From NCBI GenBank assembly GCA_000004985.1, contig GG738914.1: a stretch of DNA of 64,000 bases; one strand, given 5' to 3'. Both the position numbers and the translations under genes were made by a program. Of the stretch, positions 5,453 through 60,231 are shown one piece after another (the stretch's first letter is position 1; each line of letters opens with the position of its first letter). The notes under the pieces are model-generated. The model made no database searches and was not told where the DNA came from. It worked only from the letters and a program-made list of their open reading frames with translations. This DNA is from Naegleria gruberi (taxonomy: Eukaryota).

Positions 5453-5531
5453 AATCATTATTTACAACCTCTAGAATTGCACTTTTTCACACAACCATCT
5501 CTTTTCACACTCAATTATCCAATCATAAAAA

Positions 5532-8500
5532 ATGTTCAACTTTCACAAGTATGCACTCGTCACTTCCCCTCCGAATCAACAGGAACAACAACAAACAATT
5601 CTATCCAACAACAAATTCCAACCACTTTTGACAGGAATTTCCTTCGGAGATATGCTTTTAATTCTAGAAACAGTTCCATGCACAAATGATCATCATCACG
5701 ACGATGACAATTCCTCTTCCTCACAGCAATCATCATCAATGAGTTATGTGCAACGAGTGAATATTCATGCCCTGCACAAGCACGGCTATAAACTCTATGA
5801 TCATCGTAATAGACCTCAGAAACCACAACTCTTCAGCACCTGTGGTTGGATCCCAACCAGTTATCTGACAACCATTCTGCCAGATCCATTGGTGTGTAGT
5901 CCCAATAAGAGTTTGGATCTGGGAAGGGCACTCGTTGATAGAGAAGAAGATATTGAACAAGCAGAGCAGTATCAGAAGGAGCATGGTATGAGGATGGATA
6001 ATTATGAGAGTTTCTGTAGGGATATGTATCGATTTGAGTGTTGGAATGATGTGGAGAAGGTCAGAGGAGGAGAATTGGATCGATTGGAGAAGGTTTCCAC
6101 ACAGCAATGTCATGTACATTGTTTGGAAGCTCCAAAATATGATGAGTTCAATATTGGTGTGGAAAGTTTTGAGAAGGAGAAGGAGGAGTGGAAGAAATTG
6201 GCGAGGGAAAAGTTTAAGGACTGTAGAGATGTATTCTTTGTGAAGAATTCGAAACATCCTGGATATTTGCATTGGCTCATTAGGAGTGCCTACATTTCAG
6301 AGACAATTATTAATGCTCTGAATGCCTTTGGAGATCGTCCTTGCTTGGGTTATCGTAGAAGAATTTCTGCAACTGAATTTGAAACTTTTCATAGATGGTT
6401 CACTTTCGAACAGTTGCATGAACGAGTGATGAGATTTGGTTTGGGTCTCTATCAATTTGAAAAGGAATTTTTAAATCAACCAAGACCATTTAGTCAAGAG
6501 GAAGGCAGAGGATTCGTTGGAATTTGTTCGAGCAATAGAGCCGATTGGTTTGTAGCTGATTGGGCCTCTCTCACTCAGAGTTTCATTTCTGTTGCATTGC
6601 CTCAAACCAAAGTCGATTGCATTAGTGAAGATATTGTGAATATGGAAAGTGTTGATGTTTTGAAAAGTATTTCACATGAAATTATTTGCATTATCAACAA
6701 TTCACAAATTCCATTATTGGTTTGCAGTCGTGATTTGACAGTCAAATTTTTGAAATTAATCAAACATGGATTGATTCCTTCTGTTAAGGTAATTGTTCAA
6801 ATGGAAGATTTCCTTGTAAAGAAGGAAGAATTTGATGAAACAAGTTATAAGAATGCAGGAGAGGAAGAATTGACCAAATATTTGAAAAATTTGAGAGCTG
6901 TTCATCAGGGAAAAGTGAAACAACATGCTAAGAAATTAACTTCTCAAGATGATTCCACGTCATCACCACTCTATTATCTCATGAAGAGTCGCTATAAGAA
7001 TTCAAATCTTAATATGAATGTTTCCATTGAGGAATTGTGTGATTTTAATAAGAGCGATGATGAATTTGTCATTCACAATTACATTTCTGAAAATGATATC
7101 AACTTGGATTGTAAGTCAATCATGTTAGCTAGAGAACTCTCGATAGAATTGACAGATATGACAAGTATCGAATTGAGTACTTGCAAGGACTATCCAACTT
7201 TTAACAATGCGCTCAGATTTAACATTAGAACTAATAATTCAGTGAACGACTTGACCACCATTGTCTATACTTCTGGATCGACTTCAACAGAACCTAAAGG
7301 AGCTGTCATGACCGATCGACAATATAATGAAAATGTACAAATGGAAATCTATCATTACCATCCACTAGTGTTCATTACCTATGCTCCATTGTCACACATT
7401 ACAGATAGAATGAACACTACAGCATGCATGGTAAATGGTGGAAGAAGTGGATTCAATTGTGGAGAGATGGATAAGGTATTTGATGATTATCAATCTATTC
7501 AACCAGTGACTGAGTCAAACACTCCAAGATTTTACAATATTCTTTATGCAGAATATCAAAGATTGAAAGTTTTGGAAGGTGATTCACTCACCCCTGAAAA
7601 GGAAGAAGAAATTATGCAAAAGGTCAGAAATATGCTTGGAGGAAGAATTAAATCCCTCGTGACAGGTGGTGCTTCAACTTCACCACAAGTAGTTGAATTT
7701 TTAAAGGAGTGTTTCAAATGTAATGTTTACAATGGGTATTCTTCAACAGAATGTGGATATATTGGACCAATTGGTGTTGATGGAGTTGACTATTTGAGTG
7801 AGAAAATTCAAGAGGAAAACAAACAACTTCCTAGACATATTATGAAATTGAAAGATGTGGAAATCAAATTGGAAAGCGTTCCAGAACTTGGCTATTTTAT
7901 AACTGATGTGCCATTTCCAAGAGGAGAAATTTGTGTCAAGAGCTCGACTATAATTTCAGGATATTACAGAGATACTGAAAAGACTAAACTTTCATTCGAT
8001 TCGGAAAATTATTTCCAAACAGCTGACATTGGTGAAATTGATAAGGAAAAGCTCAGATTGAGAATTATTGATAGAAAGAAGAATATTTTCAAATTGAGTC
8101 AGGGAGAATTCGTAGCTCCAGAAAATTTGGAAAATTTGTTCATTTCCAAAACATTATTTGTGGATCAAATTTACATTTACGGAAATTCTGAAAAATCCTT
8201 CCTTGTGGCTGTAATTGTTCCAAGGAATTTACCATTACTGAAAGAGAAAGCTAAGAGTATGGCTATAGAAAGAAATCAAATCTTTGAAGATTCGGATTTA
8301 TCGAGAAATGGTTTCATTTACAAGGTCATTCAAGATGATTTGAACAAGTGTGCAAGAGAAGCCAAATTGGAATCGTACGAAATTCCAAAAGGTTTCATTA
8401 TTGAGATGGAAATATTCACTCCAGAGAATGGTAAAATGACAGCATCTTACAAGCTTTGTAGACCAGCACTTGTAAAGTCTTACAAGGAAGATTTAGAGAA

Positions 8501-10062
8501 ATTGTATAAGGAAATTGAAGGAGAAGATATGTCCACTCTGGATCAAGTTTCCAATAAGGTTCAATTGGAGGAATTTTTGAAAAAACTATTCGAAAGTGGA
8601 GGAGTTGTCGATTCGTTGAGCTCTGTTCGATTATCCAACCTTCTGTCACAGAAATTCAATGTAAAACTTGGTGCAGATAAAATCTTACAAGAATGCAAGA
8701 ATAATGAAAATCCAGCACTTGCCATTATGGAAATGATTGAGAAGCTGCTGGAAAATGGACAAGCCCAAGATGAATTATTTAGAAATGATGAAGAGTTGTT
8801 GCGGGAAGTTAAAGATCTCATCAAGGATATTCCAATAGTTGACGAAACTCTTTCGAAAACTATCGAACTGAATAAGAATAGAAATATTTTAATCACTGGA
8901 TCAACTGGATTCATTGGAGTTGGATTGGTATGTGAGCAATTATTCAGCAATCCAGAATCCAATTTGACATGTATTATAAGAGGAAAATCATTGGATAATG
9001 AAAGGGAAAGATTAATCAGTAATGTAATGAATTATTGTTATCATTTTTCACCTGAAGAGAAGAAATCTCTATTGGAAACATTTAATAGTCGAGTTTCAGT
9101 AATTTTAGGAGATATTTCAATGAATAGATTTGGACTAGATCAAGATATTTATAACAAATTAGAAACCGATATTGATACAGTCATTCATTGTGCAGCCAAT
9201 GTCAACTTCATCATGAATTATACTCAACTTGAAGCACGTCAATGTTCAAAGTGTTATTGAATGTTTGAAATTATGTACCTCTCAAAGAATCAAACACTTG
9301 CACTTTGTTTCAACTATTAGTGTCATTCCATATTCAATGATTGATCAATATAAGGAGCTGAACAAGCTTGTCGCACAAGATTTCATTCCTCTTTCTCTTC
9401 AAAATTTCAATGACCTTTCAGATGGTTATCCACAATCCAAATACATTGCAGAGCATGCTCTCCGTTTAGCTATGGAACAATGCAACTTTAGTCAATTGAA
9501 AATTTACAGACCTGGACTCGTAGTTGGACATACCATGAATGGATTCAGCAGTGTGAGGGAATGGATTTGTAGATTGATATGTGGATTTGCTCATTTGGGT
9601 GAAATTCCAATTGAATATTCCAAACATGGCATGCAAGTTATTCCAGTCAATTGCTGCGCCAAAGGAATTATTGACCTCATCAATAATCAATCAAAATCCA
9701 ACACTACAATTCATCATTTAACCAATTGGAACAAACTCTACAGAACCATTGATAACATCCTGCTAGCCATGAAGAATTTAAATCTCACATGGAAATCCAT
9801 CCATTACAAAAATTGGATTGAAAATATTCACACACAAATGAATAATGGAAAAATGGAAAAGTTTCCACAAATGACAAAAGAAAATTCGATATTTGGAATT
9901 GTACACATGTTTCCACTCGAACATGACATGCTTAATATTGATTCGACAATGGAAGAGCAAATTTGCCAACACGATTTGAGTTATCTTTCGGATGAGAAAG
10001 TGGACGATAGAAAGTTAGTGGAAAGGGAAATTGAATTTCTAATTAGAAACAAACAGATCTAA
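5532..10062 (+). CDS. NRPS-like adenylation-carrier-thioester reductase (A-T-R) enzyme, carboxylic-acid-reductase-like; apparent +1 frameshift near 9228-9233
   Basis: ATG at 5532. The AMP-binding core has YTSGSTSTEPKG and acyl-CoA-synthetase-like blocks. A carrier-like GVVDSLSSVRL motif offers a candidate phosphopantetheine Ser. The C-terminal NAD-binding reductase has ILITGSTGFIGVGLV. The reductase alignment runs across two ORFs, 5532..9260 and 9229..10062 (NVNFIMNYTQL|KHVNVQSVIECLKL), which requires a 1-nt shift. Confidence 0.8.
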
Positions 10063-10475: not shown

Positions 10476-13400
10476 ATGACTCAACAAGTTAGTACAACCA
10501 ACATGTTGCGTTTAGTCTTGTTTCTACTCTCATTGATGTGTTGTTTGTCCACCATAACACATGCCACAACCATCAATGGTTACACTTTGGATTTGTTCAT
10601 TGGTGGTAATTTTACGAGTGGATTGAAAGTTGCCGAAACTTCACCAACCTTCTCAACCAACAACTTTGAATATCGACTCGTCTATCTGGATAAGAGAAAC
10701 GGTGATTTGTACTATTCTGTTTCAGGAAAGGTTATTCGAAAGCTCGATAAGAATGGAATTGTAACCAATGTGGCAGGAAGCATGAGAAATAATGGTAATT
10801 ATGAAGATATAGCCACCATTCAAGATTATTACTATGCCTTGGACAGAGAATTGATAGATATTGGTGGTTTAATTATTGACACCAAGTCAAATGATATTTA
10901 CTATTTAAATAATGGAATTTATATGGAAAGAATTCGAAACTCTGATAAGAAATCGATTATTGCAGTTGGTTATGGCACCAATAACGAACTTCCCTCTGAA
11001 GGATTGGGAAATCAAATCAATTTTGCTTACAATTATCCTTCTTACAATAATTACGTTCGTGGACTTGCCATAAATGGTAAGAATGAAATATTTATTGTCC
11101 AAAGAAGTTCAATTTCCAAATATAATATTGGAAATTATAGCGTTACTAATATTTTGACAGATTTTGAACCTGGCACTTATTCACAAATTGTTCTTTCCAA
11201 AGACGAAACTTTTTTGTTTGCCAAAAATGGTGAAGCAATTGATAAGATTTCCATGAATGGACAAGTGACATTTGGTTATACTAGTATTTCTAATTTAATG
11301 AGTATTGATACTGTTGATAATGAACTCTACATGTTAACTTTAACTGGTGTTTACGTTTTCAGAAACAATTCGAATCAACTTATTGCTGCCGGAAGTTCAG
11401 GAAGTTTCGTCGATGGCATGAATTCTACCAATTTACTAATTAATTATGGTACTACCATGCTTGTTGATGATAATAAGGATATTTACTTGACTGATTTGTA
11501 TAGTTCTGTAATTCTCAAGATTGACCATGCTAGTCAATTGGTCACAAATTTGTTAGCTGTTGAAATTCCAACATCTAGTGAAACAGTTTATTCAGCAAAG
11601 AATTTTACTAGTAGAGGTATTTCACATGCAGTTCATAATAAGGTCAATGGTTTCGTATACATGTGTGATTCGAATGGAAATGTATTCGAATATGACAATA
11701 ATTTAGTTTCTCAAAAAGTAACTGGTTATTCCTGTATTGATATTGCTGTAAATTCCCTCGGAGAAGTATACTTCCTTTCTAATTACTTTATTTATCAATT
11801 ATTAAGCAATGGAACTGTTATTACCTTTGCAGGAGATGGAACTTGGGGTGTTCCTATAAATGGAACTTATCTTGACCAAAACCCAGTTGCAGCAGTTAGA
11901 TTTGGTTTCTATTCGAATAATGACATGTTTCTTCAATCCAGTTATTACATTTTCAGAGTTGACCACACAACCAAATTTGTCCAAAAAATTTATTCCTCAA
12001 CCAATAGTGAATTAAGAATTACAATCATCGATCCAGACACTGACAACTTGTACACTTCTGAAGGATCGTCAATTAGTTTAGTTTATCCTAATGGAATTGC
12101 CGAAATAGTTGCTGGAATTAACTCTCAACCAGCAGTTCGTTCATTCAAGAGAAAGATTAGTTTATCCGATGTAGGAGAAGATGCATTCGCCAATTACATT
12201 AATCCAACTGGTATGTCCATTGGAGCCGATGGAAAATTATACATTTCCTATCAATATATGGTTAAGAGACTTGAGAATGGATTGTTATGGACACAGCAAT
12301 TTGTGGACACACAACAAGGACCTATGAGTGCTGCCTTTATTAGTGATGTGGTCATTTTGGGAAGATTTGGAGATGCAATCATGTTGACGAATCCAAATGG
12401 AAATATTTATTTATTGAATCCAGTTTCTAGTTTTACCTGTTTTGGTAATTTACCTTCTTCATCAAGTGTTTGTTCAGGTTACGGTTCATGTGTTGGTCCA
12501 AATCGATGCAACTGTCAAAATACCAACTTTGGTTTCGAATGTGAATATTCCACTTGTTTCGACGTTTCAGGATTCGACTATCAAACTGTTTGTGGAGGTG
12601 TCGGTAAATGTTCCATACAAGATCAATGCTCATGTCCATCTGGATACACTGGCACCACCTGTTCCACACCACTTTACAATATCTGTTATGGAATTTCCTC
12701 AAATTCGTCGAATGTTTGTTCTGGAAAGGGAAGTTGCGTTTCGACTGATTCCTGTAAATGCAATGCTGGAAGAGTTGGAAGTTATTGTCAGTATGAGTTT
12801 TGTGCAAGTACTTGGAATGCAAATTCTGAAACCTTGACATGTGCTGTTCCATCCTCGAGTTCTGTTGAGGTCAATCAGGAAATTGTGGCTGTCAATCAAT
12901 TAAGTTCAAAGGTTTTGAGGTTTAGTAGAACTCCATCAGTTTCTATAACGTTCCCATCTGATTTTTATTCGTATGTGTTAAAGACTTATCCTGAAATTGG
13001 TGATCAGTTGACAGTTGTTTCTTCCATTTATGATCCAACACTTGACACTTCTCAAGAATTGCTTGTAGTGAGTTCGACTGCTTCAGTTTCTGTCTTTAAA
13101 AATACTTCAGATATTCTCCCAGTCTATAATCTTCCAAATCCAATTGTCATTCAATTCAACAGCATCAAAATTGACAAGACAGGTGGCAGTTTCAACTATT
13201 CCTGTATGTATTATGACACTGCATCAAATTCTTGGAGCAGTAGTGGAATTAAGAGTACCATCACATCCTCACAACTTTCCTCTACTTATTACACATTCTC
13301 ACTCAAGTGTGAAACCTATCACTTGACATCTTTCTCAGTAATTGACATGAATTATAAAAAGACAAGTCGAGATGACACATTACAATTAGGAGGATTGACT

Positions 13401-15324: not shown

Positions 15325-16128
15325 ATGAAAGCTGTTCGTTGTGTGAATGTTTGTTGCTTGCTCTTGTTAGCAATTGTCTCTGCTATGATGTTATTAGAAA
15401 CTAGTGTTGGAAAGGATGTCAAGTTTTGCATGCCTCCACAAGCTACCTTCTGGGAGACTACCAAGGATGCTAGCTATATCATGAAGGAATTCAAAAATAA
15501 TGATCAGGTTATCAAGAACCAATACAATGTCAAGACTTCACAACAACGTCAAGATTTTATCGTAAAAGGAAATGTTGTAAAAAGTGAAATTTCCATTCAA
15601 AATCCAATGAATAATGATACCATCGTGTATACTCTGACCAGTGACAATGGTGATTGTTCTTGCATGAATTTTGGTCCATCTGATTCCAGTGTTTTTGTAC
15701 AATGTCACACTTTACCAATTTTGGAAAAGGGTAGTATAGCTGGAATTAATGCATTGAAAATTGGTTACAATCAAAGTGATTTGTATCCAACATGGACTGA
15801 AATTAATTATTATTGGGTTGTTCCTGCTAAGGAAAGTGGATATTGGTGGTTTTTGAGTAGAACTAGTTATGTCATTGATGATTCGAATAATGTTCAATTG
15901 GGAACTACTACTTATTATAATCAAGAAGATAAGGCTGATCCTTATGCATTCTATCTTCCAAAGTATTGTCCTCATTACTCACAATGTACCAATCCAAGAA
16001 AAAATAAACTGTTTTTGAATGACTTCCATATTTGGCAGTTTACTTGTCAATCACAAGATGAATTAAATTTTGCATTTGATTTAGAAATTTCTGTCCTTCA
16101 TCAGTTATACCATTTGAATAAACATTAA
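15325..16128 (+). CDS. secreted hypothetical protein (Cys-containing)
   Basis: The first ATG at 15325 gives MKAVRCVNVCCLLLLAIVSAMMLLETSVG, a signal peptide. The ORF track extends upstream only through a non-ATG start. The 3' end overlaps the convergent LRR gene by about 90 nt, so the true C-terminus is uncertain. Confidence 0.5.
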   Translation: MKAVRCVNVCCLLLLAIVSAMMLLETSVGKDVKFCMPPQATFWETTKDASYIMKEFKNNDQVIKNQYNVKTSQQRQDFIVKGNVVKSEISIQNPMNNDTIVYTLTSDNGDCSCMNFGPSDSSVFVQCHTLPILEKGSIAGINALKIGYNQSDLYPTWTEINYYWVVPAKESGYWWFLSRTSYVIDDSNNVQLGTTTYYNQEDKADPYAFYLPKYCPHYSQCTNPRKNKLFLNDFHIWQFTCQSQDELNFAFDLEISVLHQLYHLNKH

Positions 16129-17264
16129 GATCAGTCAAACTATTCAATTGACTAATGAAATTTGCTCCCTGATCACGAATGCAGTTATTACCAATGTTAA
16201 GCGTAGTCAATCTATCCAATCCACTAATGTGTTCAGCTCCTTTTTGTCCAATATTATTTCCACAAATAGTAAGGTTGGTCAACTGTTTCATTTCACTAAT
16301 ATATTGAGCGCCTTCATCGCCTAATTTGTTATATCCAATACCAAGAGTAGTCAATTGCTTGAGTACACATAAATGTTTTGCACCTTCTTCACTAATATTA
16401 GATGTGTAAATATAAAGATTTGTGAGTTTGGACATTTCGCTAATATATTTAGCTCCTTCATCACCAACTTTTGTGTTATTAATAGAGATAGGTTAATTGT
16501 TTCAAAGAGTGAATGTGTTTAGCACCTTCAACTCCAATATCATTGTTACTAATGTTGAGACTAGTCAATTGATTCATTCTACCAATGTATTGAGCTCCTA
16601 TATGACCAATATTATTCGAAAGGATGAGCAGTGTGGTTAACTGGTTGAGTTGACTAATAGATTTTGCTCCTTCATCTCCAATTTCATTTTCTGATATTTC
16701 GAGATATCTTAGTTGTTGCATATTACCGATATACTTGGCTCCCCCCATATCGATAGGATACAAATACCCACACATATCAAGATGAGTCAATTGATTCATT
16801 TTGCTAATGTATTTAGCACCTTCATTACCAAAATCATTGGCAGTAATATCAAGAATTCTTAATTTCTTCAGTTGACTAATGTGTTTTATATCTTCACTAC
16901 CAAGATTGTTATAATGAATATCAAGAACAGTCAACTGCTTCATCAATTCCAATATTTTACAATCAAATTTAAAAGATAAATCTCTATTTTCCACTTTTAA
17001 AGTTACAATATTTTGTAAAAATTGACCTTTCACCATTCTATCATTCCTACATATTACCGAAAGTTTACATCTTTCTCTAACAATTTTCAACCACTGTTTT
17101 GAAACTAGTGCACAACTCATTGCAATAAATTTAAAATCATCGGAATGAAAAGATAAAATCTCTCCGAGTATATCATCATCAATAACATGATGAGAATTAT
17201 TCATTGTATTGAGTGTCGATACCTCTGCAGCAGCAGAAGGGTTGCTTGTTTGTTGTTGGCCCAT
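16040..17264 (-). CDS. F-box-like / LRR (ribonuclease-inhibitor type) repeat protein; frameshifted near 16479
   Basis: ATG at 17264. The N-terminus is F-box-like (DDILGEILSF...SKQWLKIVRERC). About 14 repeats of 28 aa with consensus NxIGxEGAKYISxMxQLTxLxI follow. The repeat register continues across a tandem TAA TAA (LTYLY**INNTKVGDEGAKYISEM), which requires a 1-2 nt indel. Confidence 0.75.
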
Positions 17265-17368
17265 TTTTTTAAAATTCTATTTTTGAAAAACTTTTATTAA
17301 GGAAGGAAATTTTGTTTGAATTTGAATGTAATTTATATTAGAAATTTTGGAAATGGGCCCATAGTTGA

Positions 17369-23962: not shown

Positions 23963-24356
23963 TGTTTGGGTGTTGTTCTTTTGATATTGTTTAATTTTTT
24001 TATAATGACGTTTGGCAGTGAAATCCGATAATTCACCTACGAAGAGCTTTCATTATTTGGAAAATAATTCGCACAACACAGTAACACCAATGTCGGACTA
24101 TTTGACCATCACTGTTATTAATGACTTTTGGCAGTGATATTAAAGTGACATTTGAAGTTGACTGACTTTGAATTTAATTTCCATTCCAATGAGAAACTAG
24201 TTGAATATCTTAATAATATTTTGAACAAGACGAATGAGGTTGAACATTAGAAACTGGCGTTACTTGTTTCGATGTCGAAACCTTTCGTCTTGTTTCTCTA
24301 TCTTGCTTCCAGATTCCCAAACTTTTAAGATTCGAATATTTTTCTCTTAAAAAAAA

Positions 24357-25748
24357 ATGTCAGAATTAAAAACCACACCATCACCATCTTGCTCTCTATT
24401 TCTTCCTGATGATATTTGTTATGAAATATTAACTTTTTTACATTGTAACGATGAATACGATGAATACGATGATGATGGATCATTTTTAACACATCAATTA
24501 TTTATTTTAAATACTTGTTGTTTAATATCTAAACAATGGTTAAATGTAATTCGGAATCGATGTGAATTTACTATTTTTATTCATCATGCCAGCTGTCAAG
24601 TATTAAATTCTTTAATGGATTCGCAATTTGTTTCTAATTTTACAACACTACATGTCACTGAATCTTGGGATTGTAATATGGAAATGATTAGTTCTATGAA
24701 TCATTTAACTAAATTGCACATTAACAATAATTACACCAGTAAGAAAATGGAATTTATATGTAAATTGAATCAATTGAAAATATTGGAATTGGAATTGAGT
24801 GATATTGGAAATGAACAACTTATTCAAATTTCCCAATCTATGAAACAATTAACAAAACTTAGTGTTGGTTTTAATGATATTGGAGGAGAAGGATTGAAAT
24901 TAATTAAAGAGTTGAGTAATTCCTTGACTATCTTAAATATTGAACATAATCAAATAGGAAATGAAGGTTTGGAATTATTAAGTGGATTGACACGATTGGA
25001 TAGTCTTGATATTTCTACGAATAAGATTGATAAATTCAATTCAATTTGTAATTTGAATCAATTAACAATATTAAATGTCAGTAATAATATTGTTGGAAAT
25101 GAGGGTGTGAAATTCATAAGTAAATTGAAACATTTAACTGAGCTAGTTATGCAGAGTTGTAACGTTAAGGAGGAAGGAATGAAATCAATTTGTGAATTGA
25201 AGAATTTAACCAACTTTAACATTAGTAATAATTTTATTCGAAATGAAGGAATGATATTGATATGTAATTCATTTCCACTATTGAAATGTCTACGTGCAAG
25301 CTCAAACAAGATTAGCAACGAAGGAGTTCAAGATATTACTAAATTAGAAAGATTGACCGATCTGAATATTTGCCGAAATGAAATTAGCAATAATGGAATG
25401 AAATCAATTAGTGGATTAAAGAAGCTAACTTGTCTAGATGTTAGTGGTAATAATATTAGTGATGAAGGTGCAACATCTATTAGTCAACTTTCTCAATTAT
25501 CAAGTCTTTATATTAATGACAATCAAATTGGTGATGAAGGAATGGAATCAATTAGTGAAATGAACAATTTATCTAAACTTTGGATTAATGATAATCAAAT
25601 TGGCAATATAGGAGCCAAGGCAATTTCAGTTAACATGCATCAATTAACCTTCCTTTTTATTGCCAACAATAGGATTGGTGAGGAAGGAATTAAACTTCTT
25701 GAGAATATGAAACTGACCTATTTGGAGACCTTTGATAAACTTTATTAG
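24357..25748 (+). CDS. F-box-like / LRR (ribonuclease-inhibitor type) repeat protein
   Basis: ATG at 24357. F-box-like LPDDICYEILTFL...ISKQWLNVIRNRC is followed by about 14 RI-type LRRs (NxIGNEGxKxISxLxxLTxLxI). It is a paralog of the 16040..17264 gene. Confidence 0.8.
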   Translation: MSELKTTPSPSCSLFLPDDICYEILTFLHCNDEYDEYDDDGSFLTHQLFILNTCCLISKQWLNVIRNRCEFTIFIHHASCQVLNSLMDSQFVSNFTTLHVTESWDCNMEMISSMNHLTKLHINNNYTSKKMEFICKLNQLKILELELSDIGNEQLIQISQSMKQLTKLSVGFNDIGGEGLKLIKELSNSLTILNIEHNQIGNEGLELLSGLTRLDSLDISTNKIDKFNSICNLNQLTILNVSNNIVGNEGVKFISKLKHLTELVMQSCNVKEEGMKSICELKNLTNFNISNNFIRNEGMILICNSFPLLKCLRASSNKISNEGVQDITKLERLTDLNICRNEISNNGMKSISGLKKLTCLDVSGNNISDEGATSISQLSQLSSLYINDNQIGDEGMESISEMNNLSKLWINDNQIGNIGAKAISVNMHQLTFLFIANNRIGEEGIKLLENMKLTYLETFDKLY

Positions 25749-25824: not shown

Positions 25825-25905
25825 GCAGACTTGGCCGAGTGGTTAAGGCGACAGACTTGAAATCTGTTGGGGAAACCTTCGTAGGTTCGAATCCTGCAGT
25901 CTGCG
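25825..25905 (+). tRNA. tRNA-Ser (anticodon UGA)
   Basis: Cloverleaf is intact. Acceptor GCAGACT pairs with AGTCTGC and the discriminator is G. D-arm is GCCGAGTGGTTAAGGC. Anticodon stem ACAGA/TCTGT carries loop CTTGAAA. The variable arm is long. T-arm is GTAGGTTCGAATCCTGC. Confidence 0.9.
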
Positions 25906-26515: not shown

Positions 26516-29500
26516 ATGCAAGGAAGAACGCTACTGCTTTTCACGCTCATCCTTTTATGTGTGCTAGCTTATTGTTGTGTAGAGAATGTTACTGCTGAAT
26601 CATGGGGAAGTTTCTTGAGTCAATCTATGCAAGTTACAAATGGTAAGTGGAGTGTAATTTGACATTTTGGAAGAATTAAGCATTATGATCATTATTCATA
26701 TTTAGGAAAATTATTTTCATCATCAAAAAGATCACAAGTTGTTTGTCCTCCAAATACCTTTGGAAGTAAATGTAATAATAAGGTGAATCTCCCAGATACA
26801 TATCCTCTCAAAAAAGGTCCGTTAATGATTGGCCAGATGGAGATTAATGATGGAAATTCTTATTCATGCGAGTGGACTATTTTTGTTTTAGAATTTAATC
26901 AAAGTTTTAGTTATCCCTGTTTTTTTGTCGTAGCCGATACAACTGTTCCACCAATCAATTACACTCTAACCTATTCAGTGTGGTCTGCAGGTTTCATAAT
27001 TTTTTCAAAGGATGTTGTGTTTATTGATGGGATAATTCCAACATTGAATACTAAGGTGACCTACATGGGTGATTTCAATTTCTTGATTGACAAACCAATG
27101 AGCTGGGATGATTCTGCCAACACATGCCAAGTTGGAATAGTTCAACAAAAGATTTCTTCATTGCAAGAACTTTCAAAGTTGAAAAACTTAACTACATTTG
27201 ACATTCCTTGCAATTCATCTTCAACAATCAAGGTTCCATATTTTGGATATCCTTACTAAGATAGTGTTTTCCTATCATAATTTAAAATATTCAATGTATG
27301 ATAATTATATTCAAGAAAGAACCTTAATTGAATACTTTCCAACATTTTTTGCAAATCTTGGAAACACGACAGACATTAGCATTTCAAACTCTGATAGAAT
27401 TATCTCTTTCTATAGCATTGTGAGTTCTAACATTCCTGTTTTGAAATGCAAAGTCCAATTGAGTCTAGGAAATTCTCTCACTACCCTATTCGAATCTAAT
27501 TGTTCTTCCTTTTTGAACTTTACCCATTCACTCACTCAATACAGCACCAATACGAATGCCTCCATCATAGTCACTCTCTCAAATCAAGAATACATGTTTG
27601 AAGAAAGTGAAACTTTTGACATGAATCTATCAAATTGTTCTCAGTGTCAAAATGGAATTTGTCGATTGTCTCAAAGTAGTATTGATGGTTCAACTCATTG
27701 CGAATGCTCAGGCTTGTTTGAAGGAGAATTTTGTCAAGAGTGTAAAGATGGTTTTGTCAAATTATCGGACAAGTGCGTTTGTCCGAATGGTTATCAACAA
27801 ATTGGTTTTGGCTGTGTCTTTGTTAGTAGCTCAAACGCCACTTCCTGTTTTGGATATAGTGTCAAAGAAGGTGATCGTGCATGTTCTTATCATGGAATTT
27901 GTAATTTGAATACTCATTTGTGTGAATGTAGTGAAAACTTTGATGGTGACAGATGTTCAACATGTAAGACAGGTTACACTGGTTCAAAGTGTGATATTCC
28001 AATTTGTCATGATGTGAGTGCCATCGATTCAACTGTTTGTAATTCCAAAGGTGATTGTGTAGCACCTGACAGCTGTCAATGTAATGCAAATTATTATGGA
28101 CCTAATTGTGCAAGCTTTAAATGTAATGGCATTGAAAAGAATAATGCTTTAGTTTGTTCATCACATGGTACATGTTCCAATGCTGATGTATGCACTTGTT
28201 CCTCAAATTATGATTCGTCCACTTTCTGTTCAAAATGTCTTCCTTCCTACAATGGAACTGATTGTTCCATAAAAATTTGCAGCCCAGAAACCACTTGTAG
28301 AGGCCATGGACAATGTAACGATCAATTACAATGTATCTGTAATGGAAAATTCACAGGCACCTATTGTGAAAAGTGTTTAGATGGTTGGGTTGGCAGTAAT
28401 TGCGACATTACTTGTTCTGCACAGACAACTTGTTCTGGAAAGGGAAGTTGTTCATCAACTGGATCTTGTATCTGCTCGGCAACTTCCTATGGAGATCATT
28501 GTGAGAATTGTAAAGATGGTTGGTATGGAGCTAATTGCGACTTTAGAATAGATTTTACATCTTTTGAATTTAATGAGAATGGTGATTCGATTAGTGCTTC
28601 TGTAAACTCTGTCATGAAGAAGAATATCAACTGTTCATCGCTCATTGTAAACACTGAAGTGTTAGGACAAGGTGCAACTTGTGTATTGGATGGTGATAAG
28701 AGTTTATTGATCATTAATCTTGGCACCTTGGCAACTATTGTCATTAATGGAAATCTCATTATCAGAAACTACATTGACAGCAAATTAACAACCAATGCCA
28801 AAGTGTCAGGAACTTTCTATCAAAGAGTTGATCCTGTCGCCTCCTTGACATCTGAAAAGTCTGTCATTGGTTGTGGAACAATGTTCTTGGATGCTTCTTC
28901 ATCCACTTCATTGGACAGAAGAAGATTGTTATTCACATTCTCTGCAGTCACAGCTCCAAATAATCAAGCCTTATCAAACCTTAATAATCTCATTTCTGGA
29001 AATAGTGCAAGTACTGTCAAATTCTCAGTGAATAATTTTACAGGTGGATCTTATTCTGTTCAGGTTGCTGTTCAGAGCACATTCTCTGGTAGAGTTTCGT
29101 ATGCTACGTTTGCATTCATGGTGACTGATGCCTCCCCACCAAATTTGAGTATTAAGAATGGTGTTTCGAGTACTGTGACTATTGGAAACTCATTTGTGGT
29201 TACACCAATTGTTTCATTCCCTTCATGTTATTCTGGTTCTGCTTTAATATCTAATCTGAAATTTACCTATACTCAAGTTAGCGGTGCTGCACTCCAGATT
29301 AAACAAAAGAATGAATTGTTGGTGTTTAGTTCAGATTATACCAAGTTGACTGAAGAAGGTAAATATGTATTTAGTTTGAGTGCTGTTGAACAGGGATATC
29401 CAGGAGCATCCATCACATTCGAAATCATCGCAGTAGCCCTTCCATTGAAAGTTTCGTTCAATATTCGTGACATGTCTCAATCCATGGAAGATAAAATCTC

Positions 29501-35209: not shown

Positions 35210-36048
35210 TCAATTATCTTCTGGTGGATCTAGATCAATAATATCTCCAACAATATCAAAAATCTGTCTTGCATCATCTCCATAAACAGAGAAGAAAATC
35301 TTACTAAACTCCTCTTCAAATTCATTATCATTAATCTTTGTTCCAAGAACCTTTTCAAGTCCTAAATTCAACGAAAATAGCTTGGTTGCCTCAATATTCG
35401 AATATGTACTTATTGATTGATCCACCTTCCTAACCAGTGGCATATCCCACTGTCTACAACTTGCTTTTTGATTATCCATTTCTGAACTAATCAGTGGAAT
35501 CACCTCTGCCGTCAAGAGACTATGCTCCTCCTCAAGTTCAAGTGATTGTTTCACATAGGGAATTACAAAATTCACTTTCCTAGCCAATGCATGTTTAAAA
35601 CTCGGAAATGATGTATCAGCTCTCTGATAGAATTTCAATGTAGTATTAACCAATTCATCATCATCACTAGCTCCCACACCAGAAAATCCTATATTATTAT
35701 TATGTGTGATGAAGTCCTTTTGGATGAATTATGATCACCAATAAAAAGAACAGGAGTGTTGTTAGATGATGAAGTTACAAATCTATTCATTTGCCTAAAT
35801 AATTGATTCCTCTCTTCAACATCCTCAGCGTCCTCAGTTTTATCGTCCTCACCGTAGAAATTATTATTATTAAAATTAGTATTTTGAATAATGGCAGCAG
35901 AAGGTGGCTGTCTACTAGTAACTTCTAAAGTAACATCTTCACCCTCTGTTAGTGCATTGCCCGCATCAGTTGATACATCATCTTCATCATCATCCATAAG
36001 ATTAATCACCTCGTGCTCATTGGATGCCTGCTGCATATTTTTCATCAT
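35210..36048 (-). CDS. hypothetical acidic protein; two ORFs joined either by a 1-nt frameshift or by a 50-nt GT..AG intron (about 35689..35738)
   Basis: ORFs 35689..36048 and 35210..35677 are adjacent on the minus strand. The downstream reading frame is open upstream of its GTG (..ITHNNNIGFSGVGASDDDELVNTT). A 50-nt minus-strand segment (GTGATC...ATATAG) would join them in frame as ..VLFI-G-FSGVGASDDD. Confidence 0.5.
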
Positions 36049-47544: not shown

Positions 47545-50026
47545 TTAACCAATTGTTTCATTATCAAATAATTTCTCTAATTCCCTTTGAAAATCTTTCA
47601 TTAAAATTGGTTTTTTTAATACCAAGTCGAATCCAGATTCTAGTAATGATTCATCACTCCCAAACATTTGCAGTTACTGCTACAATCTTGCATTTTCTCT
47701 CCTTCTCAATTGACCTAATGAGTTTGCAACATTCCTTTCCACAGATAATTGGCATTAGTAAGTCCAATAAGATTAAATCAAAATTCATTTCCTTTTTGAA
47801 TGTTTCTAAAGCTTCTAATCCATCACATGCTGTTTGAGAATTAAATCCAAGATTGTTTGTCATTTTCTGTAAAACTTTTCTATTGACTTGGTTGTCATCA
47901 ACAACAAGAACCTTTTTGGAATGAAAAATTGAATTAGAATTGGAAGGAGCAATTGATGTGAGTTTGGTTGATGAAATTTTAGAGTGGATTGTGGTAATAA
48001 AGTGTTCAATTCGAGTAGGTAGGTAAATGTCAGATGTTGACAATTGAGAGGAATGCCTGAGACTCGTAGAAATAATTATAGCATTCGTAGTGATTGGACT
48101 AAATGATTCAATAGTAAATATTTTTGAATTAGATGGGTAAAATATCAGAACTTTTGATTGTGGAAGGGTATTTGATTGGAAATATTTTGGAATATTTCCA
48201 ATAACATCATTTAGAGATTTCAAAGTATTAACTTTCATCGAATTTACATTTGGATAGATGGATCTACACAGTTGCTCTAAAGAATAGGATAAATTATCAT
48301 TCTCTTCTAGAATTAAAACTTGTCTGATTGAAAAGTTCTTAATTTCCTCAATTTCCTCAGAAATTCTTGAATCAATTTTCGCAATTTGAGACATGTTACA
48401 TTTCTTTAGAGGAATGTAGATTGTTACTTTGGTTCCAACTCCAATTTCACTCTCAAAATTGATTTTTCCATTCATTAGCTCAATGAATTGATTCGAAAGT
48501 GATAAACCAATTCCATGGCTTTCGTGGAATGAGCCTCTATTTTGATTAATAACAGAATAAGAGTAATACCTTTCAAAATCCATAGATGCACCATCAACAG
48601 TGTGAAATGGTCGGAATAAATTACGAATATCTTTTGTTGGTATTCCAATACCAGTATCCTGACAAGTTACTTTCAAACATATAAATTCCTCCGTATCAAT
48701 AATGCTCCTTCCCTCTAAGAATGGATAATCTTCATCTGTTTTATCACAAACTGTGCAATTCAACATAATACTTCCTTTTTTAGTGTATTTGACAGAATTA
48801 GAAACAAAGTTGAGCAAGATTTGTGACAATCTAACATGATCTCCTATCAAATATAGTGGAACCTTATTTAAATCAAGAACAGATTGCAGCATCAGTCCTT
48901 TTTCTTTGGCTAAATTTGTGAAAACTGACAATATTGAATCAGTCAATTCTAAAATATTAAATGGAAAGTTGTTGAGCTTAATTTTACCAAGTTCTAAGTT
49001 GCTAATCTGAAGATAGTTCGAAAATACATCCATGAAAATCTTGGAATTGCTTTCAATATCATGTAATAATTCTAATTGAGCCTTCAAGTCGTTTTGCAAC
49101 CTAGTGACAAACTTTCCAAAACTCTCTATTTTCAATCCCACCAAATTTTGTAAAGTTTCCGAAATCTTTTTCATATCTAGTTGCATTAATTCAACAGTAA
49201 CCAAAAGTCCATGTAATGGATTTCTCAACTCATGAGACAAATTGGAAATAAATTTCGTCTTGGATTTGTTCATTTCTTTTTGATTGTAAAGAGCAATTCT
49301 GGAATTAATGGTTTCATCGTATTGTTGTTCCACTAAATCTTCATATACAAATCCAATAAATATGGGAGTGCTGAATGCTATGATCGGTTCCAACAGTTTG
49401 ATTATTCTATCTCTGTTCGAATCCCAAATATGTTGAAATACGTAAGGTGTTTGCCTTTCTAGATGCGTTAAGGTAAAGAACTTGCCTCCATTTCCTAAAT
49501 GTTTCGAACTATACTCAAAAGCAAGGTACTGTGCAACAATATTCGAAATGAAAATAACCAGGAAGTTCAATATCAACATTTTCTTTCTAAAATAGGAAGT
49601 ATGAGTCAAGGTCAACAAGGCATACATATTTATCAACCAGATTGGAACTTCCCTTCCCAAATAAACCTGCATGGTCAATCTGACCATCGCATTTGCCACA
49701 GTTTTGGCTAAATACCCAAATTCCAAAGTATTCAAATGATTCAAATCTTTGCTCTTCAACACTGCTCTACCTGCAATTGCATTCACAATCAAATCAATCG
49801 CAACAAGTATCAAGAAATTCACTCTCTCAATAAAATTCTCAATCCAAAATGAACAAATCAGAAGAATCATGACGAAATATCCCAAAAAAACTGGAGCCAT
49901 TCGTTGTTGGACACTATTAATCTTCATTTTGAATTTGATATTGTCCATGCATCTTCCCTGTTGCTCCTGCTTAGCAAAAAGATTCGGAAGAATTTGAGAA
50001 AGCTGTTTGGCGTAGTAATTGACCAT
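47545..50026 (-). CDS. hybrid sensor histidine kinase (TM sensor region, HisKA, HATPase_c, receiver); frameshift near 47654-47672
   Basis: ATG at 50026. Several N-terminal TM helices. H-box is ISNLSHELRNPLHGLL. ATPase G-boxes are QDTGIGIP and GIGLSLSNQFIELMNGKINFESEIGVGTKVTIYIPL. Receiver is KVLVVDDNQVNRKVL...DLILLDLLMP...IVAVTANVW. The receiver C-terminus (SDESLLESGFDLVLKKPILMKDFQRELEKLF) lies in the +1 frame and runs to the stop at about 47545. Confidence 0.85.
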
Positions 50027-55109: not shown

Positions 55110-55685
55110 ATGTACACTCCTTCCATCACTGAAACCATCGAAAATCCACCACCAACATCAAAACCAATTAGTGGTGGAAGCAATGCAACCTTCGAACCAT
55201 CATCTTCAACACCCTTCTCACCAACTGAACATGCAGTACAATTACAATATCCTCCACCAGAATCAAAATCAAATCCTAGTGATACTTATATAAGTGAACA
55301 GGTTCCTGTTTCGAAACCTGTTACTGCACTCATTGAGCCACCAGAATTAAAACCAGCAGTGGCTGCATCTGGTCAACCATCAAGTAATTCACCTCCCAAG
55401 ACAGATATCAAAGATCCAAAAAGTTTACATCTTCCACATCTTCATGTACCTTCAATGTTTCATGATAAATCTGATCCTATTCATAAGGTTAATGAATATG
55501 ATGTTGATGGAATAAGGCAGAGAAGGCTTATTTATGGAGCTGTATTGGATCGCTTTGTTTATGTCTGTTTGGATGTTGGTGCATTCCTTGGATACCTTTC
55601 GTATTTGTCCATACGAAATATTCCAGAGCAACAAGTGCTAGAGCTAGAAGATATTCTCAGTTGGCTAAAATTACTTGGATTGTAA
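55110..55685 (+). CDS. Pro/Ser-rich protein with C-terminal TM segment, hypothetical
   Basis: ATG at 55110. The N-terminus is Pro/Ser-rich and low complexity. The C-terminus has a hydrophobic segment VYVCLDVGAFLGYLSYLSI. Confidence 0.4.
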   Translation: MYTPSITETIENPPPTSKPISGGSNATFEPSSSTPFSPTEHAVQLQYPPPESKSNPSDTYISEQVPVSKPVTALIEPPELKPAVAASGQPSSNSPPKTDIKDPKSLHLPHLHVPSMFHDKSDPIHKVNEYDVDGIRQRRLIYGAVLDRFVYVCLDVGAFLGYLSYLSIRNIPEQQVLELEDILSWLKLLGL

Positions 55686-59155: not shown

Positions 59156-60231
59156 TTAAAAGAGGCCACCAAAAACAGGGCCTTCTTCCTCTTCATCTAC
59201 TGCTATGGCAACGAAACTAGGGTGTTCTTGGTCCTCTTCATCGACTACTACTCCTTCATTTGGAGATTTGAAAATATTGTTAGCATTATCAGTTGGGGAA
59301 AGCTTGTTTACAATATTCTTCATTCCAAATTTGTTACAAGCACACAAGAGTGCTTGTTTGGTATCTTCATCCAATTTACTTCCAATAATTCCATAATTTA
59401 ATCAAGTATATGTGAAAAAATTAATGGATTACAATCAATGAAATAAATTGGATCATCAAACTGTTTTGAAGCTGGTGTTTGATAACATGGATATTCACCA
59501 TTGAACATTTTCTTAAACAAGTTATCAGGTTCTTGTTGATTGGAGGTGAAATCTCCCAACGAAACTGTCATTATAGTTCCTCTCACATTCAAGTGAATTG
59601 GTTTGTTGCTATTTTCGAGCTTTTCTCTTGCCAATACTTGATTTTCAAATTCGTTCATTCTAGTTTCCAATAATTCTTCTTTCTTTCTAAATTGGTCTAT
59701 TAATTGTTGTTCAAGGGATGCCAATCTATCTTTTGAAACAGTCAATAATTGTTCATTTTCAGTTTGTAATGCTGCCATCCGTTCCAGGTGTTCTCTTTCC
59801 AATTTACTCTTGAATTCTTCGACTTGTTGATATGCTTCATGGAGTGGACAGTACTTTTCTTGATGGTCTTTCAACTCACCTCTCAATACAATATTCTTAC
59901 ACATGCCACACTTGACTTTCAATTTATCCAACATGTTTCGAATAGTTTTGGCACTTGCTGCACAATTCTTCTTGAATCCACCTTCGTTACACAATGGACA
60001 AACCGTTACATTCTCAATACATTTGGCACAGAAAGTATTTCCGCATGAATTATGGGAAATTGGATCCACGAAAGGATGTAAACAAATAGAACAAATTAAA
60101 TCTTCATCAATTTCCTTCTCTACATAATCGAATAGCACTTCTTCTTTCTCCTCCTTGATCAATGGTGTGTTGGAGGAAGTTATTGACGAGTTGGCTATTA
60201 GCTTGCGTTGTTTGAGTTTTTTTAACCCCAT
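59156..60231 (-). CDS. RING finger / TRAF-type zinc finger / coiled-coil / BTB (KCTD T1) protein; frameshift near 59375-59400
   Basis: ATG at 60231. C3HC4 RING CSICLHPFVDPISHNSCGNTFCAKCIENVTVCPLC. TRAF-like Cys/His cluster and coiled coil. T1/BTB region IHLNVRGTIMTVSLGDF...IYFIDCNPLIFSHILD continues in another frame as NYGIIGSKLDEDTKQALLCACNKFGMKNIVNKL (ORF 59156..59374). Confidence 0.75.

What the first reader, a model, noticed from the sequence alone, without database searches (positions are those of the whole stretch)
9200..9262. Recurrent single-nucleotide frameshifts break at least six otherwise intact, homology-supported genes
Conserved domain alignments run straight across frame changes at six sites where no GT..AG intron can explain the shift. 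The sites are as follows. (1) About 9228-9233 in the A-T-R enzyme (NYTQL|KHVNVQSVIECLKL). (2) About 16436-16481 in the LRR gene (LTYLY**INNTKVGDEGAKY). (3) About 27200-27259 in the giant EGF protein. (4) About 35678-35740. (5) About 47654-47672 in the histidine-kinase receiver (TANVW|SDESLLESGFD, at a GGG run). (6) About 59375-59400 in the KCTD-like T1 domain (FSHILD|NYGIIGSKLDEDTK). Both +1 and -1 shifts occur, and they are not at consistent stop-codon slippery motifs, so programmed frameshifting is unlikely. The likely causes are draft-assembly indels or recent pseudogenisation, and either one matters for any annotation of this scaffold.
Basis: partly seen in the sequence, partly recalled or inferred. 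Interest (0 to 1): 0.55.

Follow-up and report, generated by a model that had tools for sequence, protein, structure and literature searches.

The report
Small indels break Naegleria reference genes
In this stretch of the Naegleria gruberi reference genome, several genes are cut short by 1–4-base insertions or deletions that a nearly identical strain lacks, so they are ordinary young broken alleles or consensus errors rather than a new decoding mechanism, and they matter mainly for annotation.

Summary
The window is Naegleria gruberi NEG-M, a Sanger draft assembly. Several window ORFs are exact matches to public XP_0026705xx/0026706xx proteins.

Four of the six sites (1, 2, 5, 6) are true reading-frame breaks inside domains that no intron can explain.
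- Site 4 is bridged by a 50-nt GT–AG intron in the public model XP_002670597.1.
- Site 3 can be bridged by a 55-nt GT–AG intron.

The lesions are not all single nucleotides. Independent short-read contigs from a 98–99% identical Naegleria (ENA ERZ929261) have uninterrupted ORFs at sites 5 and 6. Relative to them the window lacks 2 nt (GAG[AG]T) and 4 nt (GATT[GGTT]AAAT). Site 2 keeps its 24-residue LRR register only if 2 nt are missing. Site 1 is one extra base.

The comparison revealed two further frame-shifting differences, at 55511/55512 and in the A7 run at 60219–60225.

The two broken genes with a comparator have pN/pS of about 1, against roughly 0–0.4 for eleven intact genes in the same contigs. 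No nonsense lesions were found.

Programmed frameshifting is effectively excluded. My best reading is real, recent loss-of-function alleles. Sanger consensus error remains possible, mainly for the 1-nt sites. This is an ordinary result and needs NEG-M reads to settle.

The parts
9228..9231 (+). Site 1. One extra base (any one of C, T, T, G in CAA-CTTG-AAG) in the thioester-reductase domain of an adenylation-thiolation-reductase enzyme. The gene is ORF 5532-9260 followed by ORF 9217-10062.
   Evidence: The Pfam NAD_binding_4 profile is split at positions 108|109. After removing 1 nt the alignment to P0001 is gapless at 38% identity. The old-frame stop lies 10 codons downstream, so the shift is not at a stop codon. 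The GxxGxxG and YxxxK motifs are read directly from the repaired translation. Any GT..AG pair would delete conserved residues.
16475..16487 (-). Site 2. Frame break in an RNI-type LRR gene (ORFs 16479-17276 and 16040-16492) inside CTC TAT TAA TAA C. Most likely 2 nt are missing; the alternative is 1 extra nt.
   Evidence: Paralog 24351-25748 aligns across both halves. Nine consecutive repeats keep a strict 24-residue register only with a 2-nt insertion repair; a 1-nt removal gives a 23-residue repeat. There is no GT in the 14-nt overlap.
27178..27232 (+). Site 3. Junction between the signal-peptide-bearing ORF (ATG 26516, 63-nt GTAAGT intron 26643-26705, ORF to stop 27259; this is public protein XP_002670539.1) and the 1420-codon EGF/REJ ORF 27192-31454. 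It is either a candidate 55-nt GT..AG intron (GTTGAA...TCAAG) or an indel somewhere in 27192-27259.
   Evidence: P0135 is 100% identical and ends at the old-frame stop. The downstream ORF has EGF and REJ domains, and its first Met is at codon 34; by inspection it has no signal peptide of its own. Only one short intron restores the frame; its GC is 0.31 against 0.36 for coding sequence. No homologs span the junction.
35689..35738 (-). Site 4. A 50-nt GT..AG intron (GTGATC...ATATAG) joining ORF 35689-36135 to ORF 35210-35728. This is most likely not a frameshift.
   Evidence: Public model P0136/XP_002670597.1 reads ...NNTPVLFIGFSGVGASDDDE, which is exactly this splice. GC is 0.28, which is intron-like. 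Homolog P0138 aligns only downstream of the junction. The 5' splice site is weak compared with GTAAGT/GTTAGT elsewhere in the window.
47652..47664 (-). Site 5. A 2-nt deletion (GTT TGG GAG [AG]T GAT) in the receiver domain of a hybrid histidine kinase (ORF 47654-50056, with a 42-codon tail at 47545-47673).
   Evidence: ENA contig L005 has an uninterrupted 566-codon ORF with Response_reg 1-107/111. The repaired window protein scores 64.9 bits over positions 1-107, against 59 bits over 1-79 when truncated. pN/pS against the ENA strain is 1.06 (Nd 20, Sd 5).
59391..59406 (-). Site 6. A 4-nt deletion (CTT GAT T[GG TT]A AAT) in the T1/BTB domain of a RING-T1 protein. The truncated product is public protein XP_002670602.1, which ends ...FSHILD.
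   Evidence: Cluster mate P0141 (379 aa, ENA) reads ...FSHILDWLNYGIIGSKL... straight through. The DNA alignment is 99.08% identical over 2273 nt with a 4-nt gap at about 59400. pN/pS is 0.95 (Nd 4, Sd 1).
60219..60225 (-). An extra frame-shifting difference in the same RING-T1 gene. The window has A7 and the ENA contig has A6. With A6 the ORF starts 22 codons further upstream (MTSVRVTNQKLELQSQKNRHYGVKKLKQ).
   Evidence: An upstream 63-codon ORF 60107-60298 in another frame was seen.
55506..55520 (+). An extra frame break that is not in the finding. One nt is missing (GAT GGA [T]AT AAG) in gene 55110-55685 (public XP_002670545.1, 191 aa). The ancestral two-transmembrane C-terminus is still open in another frame, at 55514-55777.
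   Evidence: The ENA protein is 222 aa; the window tail is frameshifted. The out-of-frame tail differs from ENA at 8 nt: 6 synonymous third-position changes and 2 amino-acid changes. The gene is therefore constrained.

Best explanation
The window is part of a 233-kb scaffold of the Naegleria gruberi NEG-M reference, a Sanger whole-genome-shotgun draft.

Four of the six sites (1, 2, 5, 6), plus two more found here, are genuine breaks of the reading frame in this sequence. They are caused by small indels of 1-4 nt at short direct or tandem repeats: an extra base in CTTG, probably 2 nt lost from a TA-rich run in TAT[..]ATT, AG lost from GAGAG, GGTT lost from TTGGTT, T lost from GATATA, and A7 instead of A6.

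I think most of them are real DNA-level, lineage-specific loss-of-function alleles that arose recently by replication slippage. They sit mostly in dispensable, fast-evolving genes (a hybrid histidine kinase, a RING-T1 protein, an LRR paralog, an orphan adenylation-thiolation-reductase enzyme). In other words they are young pseudogenes, or null alleles of a heterozygous genome that the haploid consensus happened to pick. Some of the 1-nt lesions may instead be Sanger consensus errors.

Sites 3 and 4 are most simply short GT-AG introns of 55 and 50 nt.

No special decoding is involved: each broken gene simply yields a truncated product, as the public annotation already shows.

Shown here: the breaks themselves, their size at sites 5 and 6, their absence from a near-identical strain, and relaxed constraint on two of the broken genes. 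Inferred: that the lesions exist in NEG-M DNA rather than only in the consensus, and the slippage origin.
For: Identity of the source:
- Fifteen window ORFs are exact matches to N. gruberi XP_/EFC proteins on a 233,110-bp scaffold, and spliced public models P0135 and P0136 match window exons at 100%.
- The assembly is Sanger-based with 784 scaffolds (PMC9928731; PMC6125883). The window contains N gaps.

The frame breaks:
-.

Independent comparator:
- Five megahit contigs from ENA ERZ929261 cover 21,493 window nt at 95.7-99.4% identity per aligned segment.
- In coding sequence the other six indels are all multiples of 3. The only frame-shifting ones are at 47657 (2 nt), 59400 (4 nt), 55512 (1 nt) and 60217 (1 nt). 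In each case it is the window that loses the longer ORF, which at 47657 and 59400 is the domain-bearing one.

Lesion type:
- Deletions of 2 and 4 nt are not base-calling-type errors (inference).
- Small indels are abundant natural variation between the two lineages: 31 events in 2.9 kb of non-coding sequence.

Relaxed constraint:
- pN/pS is 1.06 for the histidine kinase and 0.95 for RING-T1, against 0-0.41 for eleven intact genes. Fisher's test for the kinase against six pooled intact genes gives p=2.5e-8. In the first set of ten genes compared the two broken genes had the two highest ratios, a 1/45 chance.
- RING-T1 carries two independent frame-shifting differences.

Introns at sites 3 and 4:
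-.
Against: - No NEG-M reads could be examined, so a consensus error cannot be excluded at any site.
- All four frame-shifting coding differences are on the window side and none is clearly on the ENA side. This asymmetry is what assembly error predicts.
- Gene 55110-55685 is under purifying selection (6 synonymous against 2 non-synonymous changes in the out-of-frame tail) yet carries a 1-nt deletion. That fits an error or a very recent or heterozygous lesion better than an established pseudogene.
- Apart from RING-T1, every broken gene shows a single lesion. There are no nonsense lesions among about 29 genes, whereas real decay should also give stops.
- The ORFs downstream of the breaks are fully open with catalytic motifs intact.
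- Four to six broken genes in about 29 is a high density for true pseudogenes. BUSCO fragmentation for this assembly is low, 7 of 303 (PMC6125883).
- Sites 1 and 2 have no same-species comparator.
- The pN/pS of about 1 could reflect fast evolution rather than loss of function. The kinase shows only one indel against 25 substitutions, so its frame was maintained until recently.
Confidence: 0.55

Rival explanations
1. All the breaks are consensus or assembly indel errors in the 2010 8x Sanger draft. Possible sources are low-coverage stretches, read-end miscalls, or mis-merging of two haplotypes. On this view the NEG-M genome itself encodes intact genes.
For: - It is a draft Sanger assembly with gaps in the window.
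- All frame-shifting coding differences against the Illumina-based ENA contigs are on the window side.
- There is one lesion per gene (RING-T1 excepted), no nonsense lesions, and the downstream ORFs are perfectly preserved.
- A constrained gene (55110-55685) is hit.
- Three lesions are single bases in or next to short runs: TT at site 1, GATATA at 55512, and A6/A7 at 60219-60225.
Against: - Site 6 is a 4-nt gap and site 5 a 2-nt gap, and site 2 fits a 2-nt gap. Base-callers do not drop 2-4 peaks, and at 8x several clones would have to agree.
- Random errors should not pick out the two genes with pN/pS of about 1.
- The implied rate, at least 4 in 18.6 kb of compared coding sequence or about 2e-4, is at or above what is usually quoted for such drafts (my own knowledge, not checked here).
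- BUSCO fragmentation is low.
Confidence: 0.33
2. The frame changes are decoded on purpose, either by programmed +1/-1 ribosomal frameshifting (as at stop codons in Euplotes, or at antizyme- or Ty1-type sites) or by insertion/deletion RNA editing. Full-length proteins would then be made from the sequence as it stands.
For: Sites 2, 5 and 6 have a stop codon at or next to the shift point (TAT TAA T, GAG TGA T, GAT TAA A). Site 1 is CUU GAA G, where a Leu tRNA could re-pair on UUG. The downstream ORFs are intact.
Against: - The near-identical ENA strain encodes the same proteins in a single uninterrupted frame at sites 5 and 6, and also at 55512. The shift sites are therefore not conserved even within 1-2% divergence.
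- There is no shared motif, both directions occur, and lesion sizes range from 1 to 4 nt.
- A nearby stop is expected anyway, because the stop frequency is 0.06 per codon.
- Site 1 shifts 10 codons before the stop.
- No literature on nuclear recoding in Naegleria was found.
Confidence: 0.02
3. All six sites are unrecognised short introns or annotation problems, and not lesions at all.
For: Short introns exist in this window: 151 nt in the ABC1 gene and 63 nt in the P0135 gene, and possibly 38-50 nt elsewhere. Sites 3 and 4 are bridged by 55- and 50-nt GT..AG intervals.
Against: For sites 1, 2, 5 and 6, every frame-restoring GT..AG interval removes conserved domain residues: NAD_binding_4 positions around 108/109, an LRR unit, the IVAVTA strand of the receiver domain, and the F-x-x-IL motif of T1. 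At sites 5 and 6 the ENA strain shows that the difference is a 2- or 4-nt indel.
Confidence: 0.03

Closest known systems
Young (polymorphic) pseudogenes and loss-of-function indel alleles in expanded gene families of microbial eukaryotes
   Same: There are small frame-shifting indels at short repeats, and an intact ORF in a very close relative. Two of the genes show pN/pS of about 1. The truncated products are already annotated as proteins.
   Different: Apart from RING-T1, each gene has only one lesion, and there are no nonsense mutations. One affected gene is clearly constrained. Whether the alleles are fixed, heterozygous or absent in NEG-M DNA is unknown.
Frameshift artefacts of draft assemblies that split gene models (as documented for the rhesus macaque draft, PMC3426473, listed)
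   Same: This is a draft shotgun assembly. Gene models are truncated or split exactly at the breaks, as with XP_002670602.1, XP_002670545.1 and XP_002670539.1. The lesions are found only in the reference and not in an independent assembly.
   Different: Two lesions are 2 and 4 nt long, and they fall in the two genes that evolve neutrally. That is not expected of random consensus errors.
Programmed +1 ribosomal frameshifting at stop codons (Euplotes; antizyme UCC-UGA-U; yeast Ty1 CUU-AGG-C). This comparison rests on my own knowledge.
   Same: There is superficial resemblance: a stop codon at three of the shift points and a CUU codon at site 1.
   Different: The sites are not conserved in a strain 1-2% diverged. 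There is no common motif, and the directions and lengths are mixed.
Short spliceosomal GT-AG introns of Naegleria
   Same: Sites 3 and 4 have GT..AG boundaries, lengths of 55 and 50 nt, and AT-richer composition than the exons.
   Different: Their 5' splice sites (GTTGAA, GTGATC) depart from the GTAAGT/GTTAGT seen at the better supported introns. No transcript evidence was available.

Membership tests
Programmed ribosomal frameshift site | The shift site is retained in orthologs and close relatives | tested here: not met
   The ENA strain at 98-99% identity has single uninterrupted ORFs at sites 5 and 6 and at 55512.
Programmed ribosomal frameshift site | A common slippery or shift-prone motif and a single direction of shift | tested here: not met
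   The contexts are CTT GAA G, TAT TAA T, GAG TGA T and GAT TAA A. Both +1 and -1/+2 shifts occur, and the underlying indels are 1, 2 and 4 nt.
Programmed ribosomal frameshift site | A full-length trans-frame protein is produced | not testable with these tools
   This needs proteomics or ribosome profiling of NEG-M.
Spliceosomal intron | GT..AG boundaries, a length within the organism's range, and removal that restores one ORF without deleting conserved residues | tested here: not met
   This row covers sites 1, 2, 5 and 6. Every frame-restoring GT..AG interval deletes conserved domain segments. Sites 5 and 6 are 2- and 4-nt indels against the ENA strain.
Spliceosomal intron | GT..AG boundaries, a length within the organism's range, and removal that restores one ORF without deleting conserved residues | tested here: met
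   This row covers sites 4 and 3. Site 4 has a 50-nt intron used by public model XP_002670597.1. Site 3 has one 55-nt candidate. No conserved residues are known in either interval. Transcript support was not testable.
Pseudogene or loss-of-function allele | A frame-disrupting lesion relative to an intact ortholog or allele | tested here: met
   Sites 5 and 6 and position 55512, compared with the ENA contigs. Site 1 compared with P0001 and Pfam. Site 2 compared with the paralog and the LRR register.
Pseudogene or loss-of-function allele | Relaxed selective constraint (pN/pS near 1) | tested here: inconclusive
   Met for the histidine kinase (1.06, p=2.5e-8) and for RING-T1 (0.95, n=5). Not met for gene 55110-55685. 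Not testable for sites 1 and 2 because there is no comparator.
Pseudogene or loss-of-function allele | The lesion is present in the organism's DNA | not testable with these tools
   No NEG-M reads are available. Contig look-ups for window ORFs and for P0135, a public N. gruberi protein, returned nothing.
Assembly or consensus indel error | Reads from the same strain disagree with the consensus | not testable with these tools
   This needs the NEG-M trace archive or re-sequencing.
Assembly or consensus indel error | Single-base miscounts, blind to gene function | tested here: inconclusive
   Three lesions are 1 nt (site 1, 55512, A6/A7). However, 2-nt and 4-nt gaps occur at sites 5 and 6, and those two genes are the two with the highest pN/pS.

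The most novel reading that the evidence does not exclude
The NEG-M reference may be faithfully reporting an unusually high load of null alleles. That would mean about 15-20% of the genes in this window carry a recent frame-shifting indel, in constrained genes as well as dispensable ones. The cause would be that N. gruberi NEG-M is a long-propagated clonal, heterozygous and possibly polyploid line in which one allele of many genes is decaying independently, and the haploid consensus samples those decayed alleles. If so, allele-specific degeneration would be measurable genome-wide in a free-living protist.
Probability: 0.15. Interest if true: 0.45.

Novelty: new member of a known kind. Interest (0 to 1): 0.2.

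Why it matters
The main consequence is for annotation.
- At least five public N. gruberi protein records from this scaffold are truncated, split or carry a frameshifted tail. Three were confirmed here: XP_002670602.1, XP_002670545.1 and XP_002670539.1. The histidine-kinase and adenylation-thiolation-reductase models are inferred.
- One record (XP_002670535.1) probably contains a retained in-frame intron.
- Anyone counting histidine kinases, LRR proteins or NRPS-like enzymes in Naegleria, or using these proteins as references, inherits these errors.

There is also a modest biological point. Small indels are a very frequent kind of variation between N. gruberi lineages, about as common as substitutions in non-coding DNA. 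Some fast-evolving signalling genes are being lost, or are null, in the laboratory reference strain.

Nothing here points to a new mechanism.

Tried and rejected
- Ciliate-style recoding or tiny introns (Euplotes, Stentor). Rejected once the organism was identified as Naegleria, after a 151-nt intron was mapped, and after the ENA strain showed plain ORFs.
- Synteny with N. lovaniensis, to obtain orthologs of the neighbouring genes. Gene order is not conserved.
- Exact-protein look-ups for window ORFs, to find the source contig or Logan assemblies. They found nothing, and P0019 was also not on record.
- The search of protein representatives with a repaired chimeric protein.
- Metagenome scans for the site 1 DNA pattern and for relatives of RING-T1. 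Both were empty.
- Literature searches for reports of frameshifts, pseudogenes or long-read re-assembly of NEG-M, and for the ENA accessions. Nothing relevant turned up. The 2010 genome paper is not held.
- A reciprocal frame-breaking 22-nt deletion in the ENA strain's EGF2 gene. I first read it as evidence for symmetric natural pseudogenisation. I now think it more likely lies inside an unannotated 120-nt in-frame intron, so I do not count it.
- The 104-residue N-terminal extension of the ENA DUF676 protein. I considered it as another broken region, but it is a spurious ORF running through a tRNA-Gly gene.
- An in-frame stop after the LRR gene. This is the natural gene end.
Full report
**What the window is.** The sequence is AT-rich (about 33% GC) and gene-dense, with long ORFs that end mostly in TAA or TAG. 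An ABC1-kinase ORF has its best hits in Naegleria lovaniensis and N. fowleri at 68% identity. Fifteen window ORFs are exact matches to public N. gruberi proteins on a 233,110-bp scaffold (XP_0026705xx/XP_0026706xx, EFC37xxx), and spliced models P0135 and P0136 match window exons at 100%. That assembly is strain NEG-M, sequenced by Sanger shotgun, with 784 scaffolds and 1,977 contigs (PMC9928731; PMC6125883). The window has two runs of N, at 56802-56851 and 63646-64000.

**Site 1 (9228-9231, + strand).** This site is robust. The Pfam NAD_binding_4 profile is matched over positions 1-108 at the end of ORF 5529-9260 and over positions 109-258 at the start of ORF 9217-10062. Deleting any one of C9228, T9229, T9230 or G9231 gives NYTQLKHVNVQSVIECLKL. 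That aligns without a gap to NYDQLKSVNVGSVVECLKL in the closest homolog, a metagenome protein of 38% identity. The old frame runs ten more codons before its stop, so the shift is not at a stop codon. The 281-codon ORF after the break would be open by chance with probability 3e-8.

**Site 2 (16475-16487, - strand).** ORFs 16479-17276 and 16040-16492 together align to the in-window LRR paralog 24351-25748. Nine neighbouring repeats have a strict 24-residue period. A 1-nt removal gives a 23-residue repeat, while adding 2 nt (..LTYLY-INNTKVG..) keeps the register. The lesion is therefore more likely a 2-nt loss in a TA-rich run. There is no GT in the 14-nt overlap.

**Site 5 (about 47657, - strand).** The receiver domain matches profile positions 1-79 before the break. 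After repair it matches 1-107 of 111, including the conserved K-P.

**Site 6 (about 59400, - strand).** The weak T1/BTB_2 match and the alignments to KCTD1 and KCTD15 structures end exactly at ..FSHILD. An 81-codon ORF with one of the highest codon-usage scores in the window follows in another frame.

**Sites 3 and 4 are different.** At site 4 the public model XP_002670597.1 (P0136) reads ..NNTPVLFIGFSGVGASDDDE... This is exactly what removal of a 50-nt GT..AG interval (35738-35689, GTGATC...ATATAG, 28% GC) produces. The only distant homolog aligns downstream of the junction.

At site 3 the upstream ORF is public protein XP_002670539.1. It has a signal peptide (ATG at 26516), a 63-nt GTAAGT intron, and ends at the old-frame stop 27259. 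The 1420-codon EGF/REJ ORF that follows has no start or signal peptide of its own. The two ORFs are therefore one gene, but a single 55-nt GT..AG interval (27178-27232) can join them. No homolog spans either junction. For sites 1, 2, 5 and 6, in contrast, every frame-restoring GT..AG interval deletes conserved domain residues.

**An independent comparator.** Cluster look-ups showed that several window proteins share 90% clusters with proteins from one ENA metagenome assembly: ERZ929261, run ERR1078381, project PRJEB11402, assembled with megahit. Five of its contigs (L004-L008) align to 21,493 nt of the window at 95.7-99.4% identity per aligned segment. The mismatch rate is 1.1% in coding and 1.5% in non-coding sequence. 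This is a very close Naegleria strain, or conceivably the other haplotype. I could not find what the sample is.

**What the comparator shows at the sites it covers.**
- At site 6 it encodes a 379-residue protein that reads ..FSHILDWLNYGIIGSKL.. straight through. The window lacks GGTT.
- At site 5 it has an uninterrupted 566-codon ORF with a complete receiver domain. The window lacks AG from GAGAGT.
- It exposed two further frame-shifting differences. One is A7 against A6 near the 5' end of the RING-T1 gene, at 60219-60225. The other is a missing T at 55511/55512, which gives public protein XP_002670545.1 a frameshifted tail. The ancestral two-transmembrane C-terminus stays open in another frame of the window.
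- All six other indels inside compared coding sequence are multiples of three. Thirty-one indels, mostly 1-2 nt, lie in 2.9 kb of non-coding sequence.

**Selection.** Between the window and the ENA strain, pN/pS is 0-0.10 for EGF2, g13752, RRM, DUF676, OYE, D123, g54429 and the RGS gene 52487-54412. It is 0.2-0.4 for four others, one of them the frame-broken gene 55110-55685 (0.23). For the two broken genes it is 1.06 (histidine kinase, 20 non-synonymous against 5 synonymous) and 0.95 (RING-T1, 4 against 1). Fisher's test for the kinase against six pooled intact genes gives p=2.5e-8. In contrast, the out-of-frame tail of gene 55110-55685 shows 6 synonymous and 2 conservative changes, so it is clearly constrained. 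No in-frame nonsense lesion splits any gene in the window.

**Interpretation.** Programmed frameshifting or RNA editing is effectively excluded. The shift sites share no motif or direction, the underlying differences are 1, 2 and 4 nt, and a strain 1-2% diverged has ordinary ORFs. The real choice is between true NEG-M alleles and consensus errors.

*For true alleles:*
- The 2-nt and 4-nt sizes at short direct repeats point this way. This is my inference: a base-caller does not skip 2-4 peaks in most clones.
- Small indels have a very high natural input in this genome.
- The two genes with the multi-nucleotide lesions are the ones evolving neutrally.
- RING-T1 has two lesions.

*For errors:*
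- All frame-shifting differences are on the reference side.
- There is one lesion per gene and no nonsense mutations.
- The downstream ORFs are perfectly preserved.
- A constrained gene is hit.
- The density is implausibly high for fixed pseudogenes.

A heterozygous null allele picked up by the haploid consensus would reconcile most of these points. My probabilities:

| Explanation | Probability |
|---|---|
| Real DNA-level lesions, for most of sites 1, 2, 5 and 6 and the two extra sites | about 0.55 |
| All lesions are assembly error | about 0.33 |
| Everything else | a few percent |

Per site, I rate real lesions at roughly 0.75-0.8 for sites 5 and 6. I rate them at roughly even odds for the 1-nt sites.

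**Verdict.** It is ordinary in kind and useful for annotation. It can be settled with existing NEG-M reads.

Noticed in passing
window 55110-55777 (+): Gene XP_002670545.1 (191 aa) has a frameshifted C-terminus. The window lacks one T at 55511/55512 relative to the ENA strain, whose 222-aa protein ends in two transmembrane helices. That tail is still open and conserved in another frame of the window.
   Followed up: yes
window 10606-10725 (+): The EGF2 gene (XP_002670535.1) probably contains an unannotated in-frame 120-nt intron (GTAATT...TTTCAG). The ENA strain has a 22-nt deletion inside it, yet the gene is strongly constrained (pN/pS 0.08).
   Followed up: partly
window 60219-60225 (-): An A7 run in the window against A6 in the ENA contig moves the start of the RING-T1 gene. 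With A6 the ORF begins 22 codons further upstream.
   Followed up: partly
window 50650-50900 (-): A small gene upstream of the histidine kinase has short GTAAGT introns of 38-78 nt. It also shows a possible further frame break just before the 5' splice site at 50669: one frame ends ..SISICFY* while the splice requires the other frame.
   Followed up: no
window 47654-49243 (-): The histidine kinase differs from the ENA strain by 20 amino-acid changes against only 5 synonymous ones. The changes cluster in the linker segments between domains. This could be relaxed constraint or rapid adaptive change.
   Followed up: partly
window 25825-26068, 31598-31678, 44314-44384 (+): There are three tRNA-Ser genes and one tRNA-Gly(GCC) gene. 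The gene caller on the ENA contig ran a spurious 104-residue N-terminal extension of the DUF676 protein through the tRNA-Gly gene.
   Followed up: yes
window 5532-10062 (+): The adenylation-thiolation-reductase enzyme has a long N-terminal extension. My search with its C-terminal 501 residues (reductase-domain region) returned no Naegleria homolog. The closest protein is a JGI metagenome sequence at 38% identity, so this may be a lineage-specific or transferred gene.
   Followed up: partly
window 56802-56851 and 63646-64000: These are assembly gaps (runs of N). The first lies inside the class-3 lipase ORF 56742-57275, whose N-terminal half of the domain is not found.
   Followed up: no
window 16040-16128: The 3' ends of the convergent genes 15325-16128 (+) and 16040-16492 (-) overlap by 89 nt.
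   Followed up: no
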